From: Escherichia coli
GTDB lineage: Bacteria; Pseudomonadota; Gammaproteobacteria; Enterobacterales; Enterobacteriaceae
Length of the DNA: 64,000 bases
Strand: one strand, 5' to 3'
NCBI RefSeq assembly: GCF_024223415.1
Contig: NZ_CP100500.1
Below, piece after piece: positions 6,060 through 33,342 of the stretch. The translations under genes and the position numbers were made by a program. The notes beneath the pieces were generated by a model that saw nothing but the letters and a program-made list of their open reading frames with translations, did no database searches and was not told where the DNA came from. Numbering within the stretch: the first letter of the stretch is position 1; every line of letters begins with the position of its first letter.

Positions 6060-6759
6060 AGAGTTCCCCGCGCTAGCGGGGATAAACCGGCTGGATACCG
6101 ATCAATTCAATATCGTTTTACGAGTTCCCCGCGCTAGCGGGGATAAACCGGAATACCGATTCATAACGGCGGAAATGTGGATGAGTTCCCCGCGCTAGCG
6201 GGGATAAACCGGTTAATGATGTCAGTGGCGGTTTTCGTATCGCGAGTTCCCCGCGCTAGCGGGGATAAACCGAGTGAGGCAATCAAATGACCCGCCCGCA
6301 ATTAGAGTTCCCCGCGCCAGCGGGGATAAACCGTAAATCCCTCGCGCATCGAGTCAAATGTCGGAGAGTTCCCCGCGCCAGCGGGGATAAACCGGTCGCT
6401 GGAACGGGGCGAATAAAGAGGGGCTCGAGTTCCCCGCGCCAGCGGGGATAAACCGACAGCTCTTTCCCGTCGTTATCCAGTTGGTAAGAGTTCCCCGCGC
6501 CAGCGGGGATAAACCATATGATTCACGAATTACAGGAAACCAGCCGCCGAGTTCCCCGCGTCAGCGGGGGTAAACCGCTATCGGGGTGATTCTGCCAATG
6601 CTCAGAGTGGTGTTCCCCGCGCCAGCGGGGATAAACCGAGCGTTTGCTCCGGGTGGAATAACCCTGGCGGGTGTTCCCCGCTCCAGCGGGGATAAACCGT
6701 TTGCTGGAACCCAAAACTCAGCGCACAGGTTGTGTTCCCCGCGCCAGCGGGGATAAACC
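6060..6759 (+). CRISPR. Type I-E CRISPR array, 12 repeats of 29 bp with 11 spacers of 32 bp (61-bp period)
   Basis: Repeats GAGTTCCCCGCGC[T/C]AGCGGGGATAAACCG at 6060, 6121, 6182, 6243, 6304, 6365, 6426, 6487, 6548, 6609, 6670, 6731; distal repeats degenerate (GTG..., last base A). Confidence 0.98.
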
Positions 6760-7214
6760 ACCATATAACCCGTTATCTCTTTCTCAAGTTTTTATATTAG
6801 CTGTACTTGTAATAAGCAACATATCCACGTAACACCTCATGTTCAAAATAGTTCCCCATGCCAGATAAGTTCACAATTATCGATACAAAAAATTAAATTT
6901 AATCAAAGTGTTATTTGTATAATTCTTAAGCCGTTAAGAAATTTTAATCTATTATTTTTTTAATATTAATTAATGCCTGTTAATTTTTTCTTTAGTATAA
7001 CAGTGTATTTTTTAAGCTTGTTATTCATTGATTAAGTAATAAATCTGGAAATTTGTCTTTGTTTTGAGGCTAATGAGTGGTTTTACATAACCGCCTCTAT
7101 ACGCTGTTGATGAATAGTTCTTATGAATAAAGATATCCAGTTCATACTTTAAGTGAAAATTGATAAAGTGCGATTCGTATTGTCTTTTATTCTAAAGACA
7201 TCGAGTGTAGTTAA

Positions 7215-7352
7215 TATTCCTTGTAAAAACAGGGATAAACCGAACTAGTTAAAGTTTTTATTATGTTCCCTGCATCAGCGGGGATAAACCGGACTTGTTA
7301 TCATTTTTTAAGTTGTCGAACTTATGTTCCCCGCGCCAGCGGGGATAACCAT
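7215..7352 (+). CRISPR. Degenerate CRISPR remnant (2-3 decayed repeats, one 32-bp spacer) preceded by AT-rich leader-like region
   Basis: Repeat-like atgttccctgcatcagcggggataaaccg at 7263-7291 and atgttccccgcgccagcggggataacc at 7324-7350; partial cagggataaaccg at 7231-7243. Confidence 0.75.
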
Positions 7353-7397
7353 TCAGGTATGTTCAGGCCGGGCAGTTTCCCGCCCGGTCTTCCTCAC

Positions 7398-31153: not shown

Positions 31154-32073
31154 CGTTTGTACCACTGAGTCCGATCCCGTTAAAAGATCGCACCTCTATG
31201 ATCTTCCTCCAGTACGGTCAAATCGACGTACTGGACGGCGCTTTCGTGCTGATCGACAAAACCGGGATCCGCACGCACATTCCGGTGGGATCGGTCGCCT
31301 GCATTATGCTCGAACCGGGAACGAGAGTTTCCCACGCGGCGGTGCATCTGGCCGCCACGGTGGGAACACTGCTGGTCTGGGTCGGTGAAGCGGGCGTTCG
31401 CGTTTACTCTTCCGGACAACCCGGAGGGGCGCGGGCAGATAAATTACTCTACCAGGCAAAGCTGGCTTTAACGGAAGATCTACGCCTGAAGGTGGTGCGC
31501 AAAATGTATGAATTACGTTTTCGTGAGCCACCGCCAGCTCGCCGTTCAGTGGATCAGCTACGGGGAATTGAGGGATCCCGCGTTCGCCAGACCTATGCAT
31601 TACTGGCGAAACAATATGGTGTGAAATGGAATGGTCGCAAATACGATCCTAAAGACTGGGAAAAAGGCGATGTTGTGAATCGCTGCATCAGTGCTGCCAC
31701 ATCATGTCTGTACGGTATTTCTGAAGCGGCAGTATTAGCCGCGGGATATGCGCCCGCTATTGGATTTATTCATAGTGGCAAACCGCTTTCATTTGTTTAT
31801 GACATAGCCGATATCATTAAATTTGATTCGGTTGTGCCAAAGGCATTTGAAATAGCGGCAAGACACCCGGCAGAATCTGATAAAGAAGTCAGATTAGCCT
31901 GTCGCGATATTTTCCGTAGCACTAAGTTAACGGGCAAATTAATACCGTTAATTGAGGAAGTCCTTGCTGCAGGTGAAATTGAACCACCACAACCCGCGCC
32001 GGATATGTTACCGCCTGCCATCCCTGAACCTGAAACGCTGGGTGATAGTGGTCACCGGGGGCGCGGCGGATGA
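31150..32073 (+). CDS. cas1: Cas1 integrase (GTG start overlapping casE stop)
   Basis: 307-aa ORF; highly similar to K-12 Cas1 as recalled ([39 protein letters not shown]). Confidence 0.95.
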
Positions 32074-32363
32074 GCATGGTCGTGGTTGTTACAGAAAATG
32101 TCCCTCCGCGCTTACGTGGACGGCTCGCAATCTGGCTACTGGAAGTGCGTGCCGGTGTGTATGTTGGTGATACATCAAAACGTATTCGGGAGATGATCTG
32201 GCAACAAATTACCCAACTGGCTGGTTGCGGAAATGTGGTGATGGCCTGGGCGACCAATACCGAGTCGGGTTTTGAATTTCAGACCTGGGGAGAAAACAGA
32301 CGTATTCCGGTGGATTTGGATGGGTTACGTTTGGTTTCTTTTCTTCCTGTTGATAATCAATAG
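32070..32363 (+). CDS. cas2: Cas2
   Basis: 97-aa ORF overlapping cas1 stop; [33 protein letters not shown] matches Cas2. Confidence 0.95.
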
Positions 32364-32459
32364 GTTATGTGTTCTTTAAAAATAAGGAAATGTTTGAATT
32401 TAGTTGGTAGATTGTTGATGTGGAATAAATTTGTTTAAAAACAGATATGTATGCTTAGT
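32364..32459 (+). promoter_or_regulatory. CRISPR leader for cas-adjacent array
   Basis: AT-rich 96 bp between cas2 stop and first repeat; shares ...ttagttggtagattgt... with the other leader. Confidence 0.7.
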
Positions 32460-33342
32460 GTGTTCCCCGCGCCAGCGGGGATAAACCGGTCAAATCGGTT
32501 ACCTTAACCTGTTGAATGTGGTGTTCCCCGCGCCAGCGGGGATAAACCGAACGGCTACGGCACCGAGGTGACAAACCAGATGTGTTCCCCGCGCCAGCGG
32601 GGATAAACCGAACTCCAGGATATTGCAAACCGCATAGTGGATGTGTTCCCCGCGCCAGCGGGGATAAACCGCCGTTGCGCTGGCATCGGGTGTACCTGTT
32701 GTGGTGTTCCCCGCGCCAGCGGGGATAAACCGCCGTTGCGCTGGCATCGGGTGTACCTGTTGTGGTGTTCCCCGCGCCAGCGGGGATAAACCGGGCTTAC
32801 ACGCCACCATGGCATCAAGAACGATGTGTTCCCCGCGCCAGCGGGGATAAACCGATTACGACTTCCGCACGCACCCACCGTTTGTAGTGTTCCCCGCGCC
32901 AGCGGGGATAAACCGTTGGGCTAGGAGGAAGAGCATCATTAACATGGGTGTTCCCCGCGCCAGCGGGGATAAACCTGAGGCGGCTAAACCGTCGCGCACA
33001 CGAGCGACGTGTTCCCCGCGCCAGCGGGGATAAACCGCGTACTGCTTACTCCGTCATCGATGTATGAGTGTGTTCCCCGCGCCAGCGGGGATAAACCGTA
33101 CGTGTCGCCGTTACAGATTTCAGTCTGTTAGTGTTCCCCGCGCCAGCGGGGATAAACCGGGCGTCCAGTGATGCTTTCTGGTGCTCGAATAGTGTTCCCC
33201 GCGCCAGCGGGGATAAACCGCACGATTTTATGTGCCGCGTTGAGGCGTGGGCGTGTTCCCCGCGCCAGCGGGGATAAACCGGGCGCACTGGATGCGATGA
33301 TGGATATCACTTAGAATTCCCCGCCCCTGCGGTAGAACACCC
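32460..33342 (+). CRISPR. Type I-E CRISPR array, 14 repeats of 29 bp plus degenerate terminal repeat; 14 spacers of 32 bp
   Basis: GTGTTCCCCGCGCCAGCGGGGATAAACCG every 61 bp from 32460 to 33253; degenerate repeat gaattccccgcccctgcggtagaacac at 33314-33342. Confidence 0.98.

What the first reader, a model, noticed from the sequence alone, without database searches (positions are those of the whole stretch)
6060..33342. Twenty-five spacers across two active-looking arrays: targets unknown and self-targeting unchecked
Both arrays have intact leaders, regular 32-bp spacers and a complete adaptation and interference gene set, so spacer content is biologically meaningful. I could not determine by eye whether any spacer matches chromosomal sequence (self-targeting, which would imply cas silencing or anti-CRISPR) or known phages or plasmids.
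Basis: inference. Interest (0 to 1): 0.3.

Follow-up and report, generated by a model that had tools for sequence, protein, structure and literature searches.

The report
E. coli CRISPR spacers target prophages
The two CRISPR arrays are the ordinary E. coli type I-E arrays, and at least 15 of their 24 different spacers match temperate phages and prophages of other E. coli strains next to the expected PAM. I found no sign of self-targeting, so this is a textbook case rather than a surprise.

Summary
Array 1 (6061-6760) has 11 spacers and array 2 (32460-33342) has 14, all 32 bp. Two in array 2 are identical, so 24 are unique. A leaderless remnant array lies at 7214-7352. Eight full-length type I-E cas genes (23802-32363) lie between the arrays. 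They are the common non-K-12 "cas-EO" variant.

The open question is now largely answered.
- **Targets found:** 15 of 24 unique spacers have protospacers with 0-3 mismatches in E. coli prophages, induced temperate phages or IMG/VR prophage contigs.
- **PAM:** 13 of the 15 carry ATG or AAG; the other two carry GTG.
- **Clustering:** most hits fall on three phage families:
  - a myovirus prophage at yecA/tRNA-Leu that is common in ST131-like strains (five spacers);
  - a P2-like prophage (three spacers);
  - a lambdoid prophage at ttcA (three spacers).
- **Ancestral spacer:** the terminal spacer, shared by more than 4,000 E. coli genomes, matches 30/32 a DUF2857 gene of an integrative island.
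- **Not targeted:** no genuine plasmid or virulent-phage target was found.
- **Self-targeting:** none in the window, and none in six related genomes that share these arrays. The host genome itself was not available.

This fits published work (Dion 2024; Díez-Villaseñor 2013). It is ordinary and of low interest.

The parts
5861..6060 (+). Leader of array 1 (the ygcE-queE array; CRISPR2 in K-12 usage)
   Evidence: AT-rich. 196/200 identical to the leaders of K-12 CRISPR2 and E24377A.
6061..6760 (+). Array 1: 12 repeats and 11 spacers (A1_01 to A1_11). Repeats 1-9 start GAG and repeats 10-12 start GTG. Repeats 1-4 carry a C14T change in the loop.
6090..6121 (+). Spacer A1_01. Target: DUF4376 tail gene of a P2-like prophage (E. 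coli LZSFT34 and 5 others). 1 mismatch (position 25), PAM GTG.
6151..6182 (+). Spacer A1_02. Target: replication endonuclease (gpA-like) gene of the same P2-like prophage. 0 mismatches, PAM ATG.
6334..6365 (+). Spacer A1_05. Target: gene between tail tube and tail genes of a myovirus prophage contig (IMGVR_UViG_2529293142_000021). 1 mismatch (position 32), PAM ATG.
6456..6487 (+). Spacer A1_07. Target: tail-fibre gene of the uspF-ttcA prophage of E. coli STEC384. 0 mismatches, PAM ATG.
6639..6670 (+). Spacer A1_10. Possible diverged target only: baseplate V gene of the yecA prophage family. 25/32 match, PAM CAG.
7214..7352 (+). Leaderless remnant array of 2-3 degenerate repeats. It is conserved in K-12 and KV7.
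23802..26501 (+). cas3 (899 aa)
   Evidence: NCBIfam cas3_core and cas3_HD pass their cut-offs. 31% identical to K-12 Cas3.
26530..28161 (+). cse1/casA. This is the longest ORF; the family match begins at residue 28, about position 26611.
   Evidence: TIGR02547, 609 bits. 29% identical to K-12 CasA.
28158..28694 (+). cse2/casB
   Evidence: TIGR02548
28709..29764 (+). cas7e/casC
   Evidence: TIGR01869
29775..30521 (+). cas5e/casD
   Evidence: TIGR01868
30503..31153 (+). cas6e/casE. The ORF opens at 30365; the family match and the pIOMTU792 annotation put the start at 30503.
   Evidence: TIGR01907
31150..32073 (+). cas1e
   Evidence: TIGR03638. 84% identical to K-12 Cas1.
32070..32363 (+). cas2e
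   Evidence: TIGR01873. 86% identical to K-12 Cas2.
32364..32459 (+). Leader of array 2 (the cas-adjacent array)
   Evidence: 92/96 identical to the pIOMTU792 copy and 73/96 to the K-12 leader
32460..33342 (+). Array 2: 14 GTG-type repeats plus a degenerate terminal repeat, with 14 spacers (A2_01 to A2_14; A2_04 = A2_05)
32489..32520 (+). Spacer A2_01. Target: small ORF between the terminase and lysis genes of the yecA/tRNA-Leu myovirus prophage. 0 mismatches in RM10042; 2 mismatches in R13 and in phage vB_EcoM-705R4. PAM ATG.
32550..32581 (+). Spacer A2_02. Target: major head protein gene of IMGVR_UViG_3300033997_000066. 3 mismatches, PAM GTG.
32611..32642 (+). Spacer A2_03. Target: gene of unknown function (phrog_17809) in a decayed integrative element beside a lambdoid prophage near narP in E. 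coli T309.Ta3. 0 mismatches, PAM AAG.
32672..32764 (+). Spacers A2_04 and A2_05, an identical tandem duplicate. Target: tail-fibre gene of the yecA prophage family (R13; phage vB_EcoM-569R10). 3 mismatches, PAM AAG.
32794..32825 (+). Spacer A2_06. Target: exonuclease gene (phrog_2489) of the yecA prophage. 0 mismatches, PAM ATG.
32855..32886 (+). Spacer A2_07. Target: small early gene (phrog_323) of the yecA prophage. 0 mismatches, PAM ATG.
32916..32947 (+). Spacer A2_08. Target: tail-sheath gene of the yecA prophage variant in RM10042. 2 mismatches, PAM ATG.
33038..33069 (+). Spacer A2_10. Target: DNA methyltransferase gene of IMGVR_UViG_2660237976_000005. 1 mismatch (position 24), PAM AAG.
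33099..33130 (+). Spacer A2_11. Target: tail protein gene of the P2-like prophage in E. coli N1420. 1 mismatch (position 1), PAM ATG.
33160..33191 (+). Spacer A2_12. Target: replication protein gene of the STEC384 uspF-ttcA prophage. 0 mismatches, PAM ATG.
33221..33252 (+). Spacer A2_13. Target: ybcN-family gene of the same STEC384 prophage. 1 mismatch (position 3), PAM ATG.
33282..33313 (+). Spacer A2_14, the ancestral terminal spacer, present in at least 4,107 of 5,426 complete E. coli genomes. 30/32 match (mismatches 30, 31; flank ATT) in a DUF2857 gene of an integrative island.

Best explanation
This is the standard chromosomal type I-E CRISPR-Cas locus of E. coli in its common non-K-12 (cas-EO) form. 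It has one cas operon and two leader-driven arrays.

The spacers are a record of temperate phages. Cas1-Cas2 took 32-33-nt fragments lying next to an AWG motif from a few families of E. coli prophages and inserted them at the leader end. Later losses and duplications of spacer-repeat units reshaped the arrays.

When the operon is expressed, Cas6e cuts the array transcripts into crRNAs. Cascade then binds matching protospacers with an ATG or AAG PAM, and Cas3 degrades the DNA. That should block infection or lysogeny by those phages.

Nine spacers have at least one sequenced target that should be fully competent for interference: an ATG or AAG PAM plus either a perfect match or a single non-seed mismatch. 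No spacer is seen to target the host's own DNA.

**Shown here:** the anatomy, the gene content, the identity of the targets, the PAMs and the history of the arrays. **Inferred from knowledge of the family:** expression, interference and the order of events.
For: - **Anatomy and genes:**
- **Variant:** Cas3 and Cascade proteins are 29-40% identical to K-12, while Cas1 and Cas2 are 84-86% identical. The K-12-specific NCBIfam models fall below their cut-offs.
- **Leaders:** conserved.
- **Targets:** BLAST of the spacers alone gave perfect 32/32 hits in prophage genes of E. coli genomes, each at E of about 3e-5. I verified the flanks by direct reading. Three further targets came from IMG/VR.
- **PAM:** 10 ATG, 3 AAG and 2 GTG among 15 targets. 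The chance of 13 or more AT/AA dinucleotides at positions -3 and -2 is about 1e-10. This matches the CWT (= AWG) acquisition motif shown for cas-EO, with CAT (= ATG) the commonest natural PAM (PMC3737337).
- **Several spacers per phage:**
  - five unique spacers on the yecA/tRNA-Leu prophage;
  - three on a P2-like prophage;
  - three on the STEC384 ttcA prophage, all on one strand.
- **Target class:** only temperate phages and prophages. There was no genuine plasmid hit. This agrees with Dion et al. 2024 (PMC10910852).
- **Self-targeting:** none in the window or in relatives that share the arrays.
Against: - **Expression not shown.** Expression and interference cannot be seen in sequence. E. 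coli I-E systems are reported to be repressed in laboratory conditions (PMC10910852).
- **Little sign of recent uptake.** Related strains differ mainly by internal deletions and duplications.
- **Host genome unseen.** The rest of the host genome was not available, so a resident prophage carrying a protospacer cannot be excluded.
- **Spacers without a target.** Seven spacers (A1_03, A1_04, A1_06, A1_08, A1_09, A1_11, A2_09) have no target, and A1_10 has only a 25/32 match.
- **Weaker targets.** Two targets carry GTG rather than AWG. Four targets have seed mismatches in every sequenced copy found.
Confidence: 0.85

Rival explanations
1. The locus is a frozen record. The cas operon is silent in nature as well as in the laboratory, and the arrays no longer acquire spacers or protect. 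The spacers tell only of old encounters.
For: - Array 2 has the same leader-proximal spacer (A2_01) in NCTC9112, NCTC10444, SCU-316 and the window. The differences are a duplication and a lost internal unit.
- Differences in array 1 are largely internal deletions.
- There is an AT-rich stretch (38% GC) upstream of cas3, of the kind H-NS binds (the H-NS link is my inference).
- The literature reports stable arrays and repression in laboratory conditions (PMC10910852).
Against: - All eight cas genes and both leaders are intact. Long disuse would be expected to erode them.
- Array 1 shows a nested leader-end series. SCU-316 starts at x2, NCTC9112 at A1_02, and the others at A1_01. Polarised acquisition would produce this pattern.
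- The first four repeats share a C14T change, as expected if the first repeat was copied at each recent insertion.
- Nine spacers still match circulating prophages perfectly or nearly so.
Confidence: 0.4
2. The host carries one of the targeted prophages outside the window. In that case the arrays are self-targeting and tolerated through cas repression, an anti-CRISPR or escape mutations.
For: - The targeted yecA-family prophage is common: roughly 450 of 5,426 complete genomes.
- Self-targeting occurs in about 10% of E. coli genomes (PMC10910852).
- The host genome could not be examined.
Against: - There is no self-match in the window at up to 9 mismatches.
- The six related genomes that share these arrays (KV7, NCTC9112, NCTC10444, SCU-316, O78 strain 3, GPEC1446) show matches only at their two arrays.
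- Self-targeting aimed at prophages is rare: 18 events among 1,014 genomes (PMC10910852).
Confidence: 0.1
3. The matches are chance hits or database artefacts, such as arrays matching other arrays.
For: Some raw hits really were artefacts.
- The 'Salmonella phage S.Kent 1-2-1' record is a Salmonella CRISPR array.
- All four 'plasmid' hits are arrays on mislabelled chromosomes or on a plasmid that captured the cas locus.
- The A1_04 metagenome hit looks like chance.
Against: - The accepted hits lie inside annotated phage genes with no flanking repeats.
- They are 29-32/32 matches with BLAST E-values down to about 2e-5 for perfect matches against 28 Gb.
- They carry AWG PAMs far more often than chance allows.
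Confidence: 0.01

Closest known systems
[quoted passage not shown]
   Same: - Same chromosomal site (cysH-sokX-cas-CRISPR-iap, plus the ygcE-queE array).
- Same eight genes.
- GTG-type ('CRISPR-A') repeats beside cas.
- AWG PAM with ATG predominating.
- 32-bp spacers.
   Different: Only at the level of alleles. The spacer set is not found intact in any of 5,426 complete RefSeq genomes. One spacer is duplicated and four units present in relatives are missing. Array 1 has GAG-type repeats at its leader end and GTG-type repeats at its far end.
E. coli K-12 type I-E system (cas-EK)
   Same: - Same locus, gene order and repeat family.
- Array 1 leader 98% identical.
- Cas1 and Cas2 84-86% identical.
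- Shares the terminal spacer A2_14 (31/32 match).
   Different: - Cas3 and Cascade subunits are only 29-40% identical.
- The cas3-casA gap is at most about 110 bp here, against 414 bp in K-12.
- The natural PAM here is mostly ATG, whereas K-12 Cas1-Cas2 selects AAG (PMC3737337).
E. coli CRISPR1 arrays surveyed by Dion et al. 2024 (PMC10910852)
   Same: - Spacers match prophages almost exclusively.
- Few match sequenced phages.
- About 60% have identifiable targets.
- Many hits fall on one abundant prophage species.
- Self-targeting of prophages is rare.
   Different: Here both arrays of a single strain were analysed and the PAM was read for each hit. I did not test whether the abundant prophage of that paper is the yecA-family prophage found here.

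Membership tests
Type I-E CRISPR-Cas | cas3, cse1, cse2, cas7e, cas5e, cas6e, cas1e and cas2e, all full length and in that order | tested here: met
   All eight pass the I-E-specific NCBIfam cut-offs. They form contiguous ORFs at 23802-32363.
Type I-E CRISPR-Cas | 29-nt repeat of the E. coli/Salmonella type with 32-nt spacers (61-nt period), downstream of an AT-rich leader | tested here: met
Type I-E CRISPR-Cas | Protospacers flanked on the 5' side by an AAG or ATG PAM | tested here: met
   13 of 15 targets carry ATG or AAG
Type I-E CRISPR-Cas | crRNA production and Cascade/Cas3 interference in the cell | not testable with these tools
   Needs expression and challenge experiments.
cas-EO (non-K-12) variant of E. 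coli I-E | Cascade and Cas3 strongly diverged from K-12, GTG-type repeat and matching leader beside cas, and a CWT/AWG acquisition motif | tested here: met
   - 29-40% identity to K-12 Cascade and Cas3.
- GTG repeats in array 2.
- Leader 73/96 identical to K-12 but 92/96 to another cas-EO copy.
- ATG-dominated PAMs.
- Definitions taken from PMC3737337.
cas-EK (K-12) variant | High identity to the K-12 Cascade and Cas3 proteins | tested here: not met
   29-40% identity. The K-12-specific models PRK09693 and PRK09694 fall below their cut-offs.
Self-targeting CRISPR array | A spacer with a near-perfect match elsewhere in the same genome, outside the arrays | tested here: inconclusive
   None in the 64-kb window at up to 9 mismatches, and none in six related genomes with the same arrays. 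The host genome beyond the window was not available.

The most novel reading that the evidence does not exclude
The terminal spacer A2_14 is kept in at least 4,107 of 5,426 complete E. coli genomes. Under this reading it derives from the DUF2857 gene of a small integrative island (AlpA, DUF2857, TraR, AcaB, DUF3158, SSB, TraI_2_C, P4-type integrase). Its near-universal retention would then reflect, or contribute to, the rarity of that island family in E. coli. DUF2857 homologues were seen in only 5 of 5,426 complete genomes.
Probability: 0.1. Interest if true: 0.45.

Novelty: already known. Interest (0 to 1): 0.2.

Why it matters
The spacers are a genuine immune memory aimed at temperate phages, not at the host, plasmids or virulent phages. 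That is the published picture of E. coli CRISPR as an anti-prophage system. The value here is local: a strain-level target list, a clear ATG-biased PAM for the cas-EO variant, and testable phage-host pairs. It changes no general understanding.

Tried and rejected
- **Phage database.** The hit of A2_13 to 'Salmonella phage S.Kent 1-2-1' is rejected. The 2.6-kb record is a piece of Salmonella chromosome carrying queE and a CRISPR array.
- **Plasmid database.** All four hits are rejected. Three are whole chromosomes filed as plasmids. One is the IncHI2A plasmid pIOMTU792, which carries a captured cas-CRISPR-iap segment. In every case the match is a spacer inside an array.
- **IMG/VR exact-pattern scans.** Nothing for A1_03, A1_04, A1_06, A1_09 or A2_09.
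- **Metagenome scans.**
  - Nothing for A1_03.
  - The A1_04 hit has 6 mismatches and a TAA flank. Only 4 of its 10 unconstrained positions match. I judged it to be chance.
- **Identifying the host strain.** No complete RefSeq genome has both arrays exactly. The closest are KV7, NCTC10444, NCTC9112, SCU-316 and O78 strain 3. A whole-genome self-targeting check was therefore impossible.
- **Exclusion test.** I asked whether genomes carrying the spacers lack the protospacers. It came out 0 of about 16, against roughly 8-10% elsewhere. That is too few genomes to be significant.
- **Strand bias as evidence of priming.**
  - The three STEC384-prophage protospacers share a strand.
  - The five yecA-family protospacers are mixed.
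  - No conclusion can be drawn.
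Full report
**What is there**

The window is E. coli chromosome, syntenic with K-12 but in the opposite orientation: queE, array 1, ygcE, then cysJIH, sokX, cas3 to cas2, array 2, iap and cysDNC.

- **Array 1:** 12 repeats at 6061-6760 and 11 spacers of 32 bp.
- **Array 2:** 14 canonical repeats from 32460, a degenerate terminal repeat at 33314-33342, and 14 spacers.
- **Unique spacers:** A2_04 and A2_05 are identical, so the 25 slots hold 24 different spacers.
- **Remnant array:** a leaderless set of degenerate repeats lies at 7214-7352. K-12 and KV7 have it too.
- **Leaders:** both are conserved. The array 1 leader is 196/200 identical to K-12. The array 2 leader is 92/96 identical to another strain's copy.
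- **cas genes:** all eight type I-E genes are full length.
- **Variant:**
  - Cas3 and the Cascade subunits are only 29-40% identical to those of K-12, while Cas1 and Cas2 are 84-86% identical.
  - This is the widespread non-K-12 'cas-EO' variant (PMC3737337, PMC3903273).

**Self-targeting**

No spacer matches anything else in the 64-kb window at up to 9 mismatches, apart from the internal duplicate.

The host strain is not among 5,426 complete RefSeq E. coli genomes. Six relatives share large parts of both arrays: KV7, NCTC9112, NCTC10444, SCU-316, O78 strain 3 and GPEC1446. In each of them the spacer-only queries hit only the two arrays. This argues against self-targeting but does not exclude it in the unseen part of the host genome.

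**Targets**

I queried the spacers, joined by runs of N, against three collections.

- **Phage collection:**
  - two genuine targets, both induced temperate coliphages (vB_EcoM-705R4 and vB_EcoM-569R10);
  - one artefact, a 'phage' record that is really a Salmonella CRISPR array.
- **Plasmid collection:** no protospacer. All four hits are arrays.
- **Complete E. coli genomes:** most of the answers came from here.

I fetched each hit and read its flanks. Exact-pattern scans of IMG/VR added three more targets.

| Target | Spacers (mismatches, PAM) |
|---|---|
| **I.** About 43-kb myovirus prophage between yecA and tRNA-Leu/Cys/Gly (lambda-like head, P2-like tail). Seen in R13 and RM10042, and matched in JJ1887, ZH063, O25b:H4 and many others | A2_01 (0, ATG); A2_04/05 (3, AAG); A2_06 (0, ATG); A2_07 (0, ATG); A2_08 (2, ATG); possibly A1_10 (25/32, CAG) |
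| **Ia.** Tail module of similar gene order in an IMG/VR contig | A1_05 (1, ATG) |
| **II.** P2-like prophage | A1_01 (1, GTG); A1_02 (0, ATG); A2_11 (1, ATG) |
| **III.** Lambdoid prophage at ttcA in STEC384 | A1_07 (0, ATG); A2_12 (0, ATG); A2_13 (1, ATG); all on one strand |
| **Singles** | A2_03 (0, AAG; decayed integrative element beside a prophage); A2_02 (3, GTG; major head gene); A2_10 (1, AAG; phage methyltransferase) |

Roughly 450 of the 5,426 complete genomes match family I spacers, with a median of four protospacers per genome.

In total, 15 of 24 unique spacers have targets with 3 or fewer mismatches. Thirteen carry ATG (10) or AAG (3). Nine have at least one sequenced target that should allow full interference.

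**The ancestral spacer**

A2_14 is the oldest spacer. At least 4,107 of the 5,426 complete genomes match it and none of the other spacers (4,692 matching genomes, minus 585).

A scan of species-representative genomes found one occurrence outside an array.
- It is a 30/32 match with mismatches at positions 30 and 31.
- The flank is ATT.
- It lies inside a DUF2857 gene.

The gene belongs to a small integrative island made of AlpA, DUF2857, TraR, AcaB, DUF3158, SSB, TraI_2_C and an integrase. DUF2857 homologues are rare and diverged in complete E. coli genomes: 5 of 5,426, at about 68% identity. Given the 21-nt seed I searched with, 9 of the 11 remaining positions matching has a chance of about 1e-4. 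The homology is therefore real. Its biological meaning is open.

**Array history**

- **Array 2:**
  - NCTC10444 and SCU-316 carry array 2 without the A2_04 duplicate and with one extra spacer between A2_08 and A2_09.
  - NCTC9112 has that same extra spacer and duplicates A2_11 instead.
- **Array 1, inferred fullest order:** A1_01, A1_02, x1, x3, x2, A1_03 ... A1_11, as in O78 strain 3.
- **Array 1, losses and leader end:**
  - The window has lost x1, x3 and x2.
  - NCTC9112 starts at A1_02.
  - SCU-316 starts at x2.

Most variation is therefore internal loss or duplication of units.

The nested leader-end series could mean that acquisitions happened within this lineage. So could the C14T change shared by the first four repeats. 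A1_01 and A1_02 hit the same P2-like phage, which would be consistent with priming. None of this is proof.

**How it most likely works**

This is canonical I-E immunity. The leader promoter drives the pre-crRNA, Cas6e processes it, Cascade recognises the PAM and the seed, and Cas3 degrades the target. Cas1-Cas2 of the cas-EO type selects AWG-flanked prespacers. That fits both the experimentally defined CWT motif and the natural excess of CAT/ATG (PMC3737337). ATG and AAG are the consensus interference PAMs, and GTG supports priming in K-12 (PMC6568314).

The anatomy, targets and PAMs are shown here. Activity is inferred.

**Comparison and verdict**

The result reproduces Dion et al. 2024 (PMC10910852): E. 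coli spacers target prophages almost exclusively, few match sequenced phages, about 60% can be assigned a target, and self-targeting of prophages is rare. The locus is a known system with a new allele of its arrays. The finding was worth checking, and it turns out to be ordinary.

Noticed in passing
window 23315-23609: A hok/sok-type locus that looks intact lies between cysH and cas3. Rfam sok scores 110 bits at 23315-23472. A 50-codon Hok-like ORF ([20 protein letters not shown]...) runs from 23457 to 23609. K-12 annotates only sokX at this site.
   Followed up: partly
window 26501-26611, against L023 (K-12) 10139-10554: cas3 and casA are almost contiguous here, with a gap of at most about 110 bp. 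K-12 has a 414-bp intergenic region at this point. The cas promoter layout must therefore differ from the K-12 model. The only long AT-rich stretch (38% GC) lies upstream of cas3, at about 23640-23800.
   Followed up: no
window 6061-6760: Array 1 mixes repeat types. Repeats 1-9 begin GAG and repeats 10-12 begin GTG. Repeats 1-4 also carry C14T in the loop. Two repeats end in A or T rather than G (6516; 32976 in array 2), which suggests their downstream spacers came from protospacers whose PAM did not end in G.
   Followed up: partly
L001 (OR851156.1, 'Salmonella phage S.Kent 1-2-1'): This GenBank 'phage' record is a fragment of Salmonella chromosome carrying queE and a CRISPR array. One of its spacers is 31/32 identical to the E. 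coli spacer A2_13. The same lambdoid ybcN protospacer was apparently captured in both genera.
   Followed up: partly
L004 (NZ_LC542972.1, pIOMTU792, 242939-250967): A conjugative IncHI2A plasmid carries a chromosomal-type segment running at least from cas7e to cas2e, then CRISPR and iap, a few kb from blaCTX-M-15. A type I-E module has been mobilised onto a resistance plasmid.
   Followed up: no
L015 (E24377A array) and about 40 other genomes: Spacer A1_02 sits second from the leader here. The identical spacer occurs in otherwise unrelated arrays, for example sixth of 25 in E24377A. That implies either repeated capture of one hot protospacer in the P2-like gpA gene or recombination between arrays.
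   Followed up: partly
L020 9165-9196 (NZ_JAATUR010000001.1); L032-L037: The near-universal terminal spacer A2_14 matches 30/32 a DUF2857 gene in a small integrative island beside a P4-type integrase. The identical protein is on record on 11 contigs. The flank is ATT, which is not a consensus PAM.
   Followed up: partly
PLSDB hits H31, H33 and H34: Three 'plasmid' records of 4.8-4.9 Mb are whole E. coli chromosomes filed as plasmids. They can produce false spacer-to-plasmid matches.
   Followed up: yes
L030 (SCU-316 array 1): The repeats and spacers of this assembly carry many single-base indels in homopolymers. These are probably long-read errors, so its array should not be used for exact spacer typing.
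   Followed up: no
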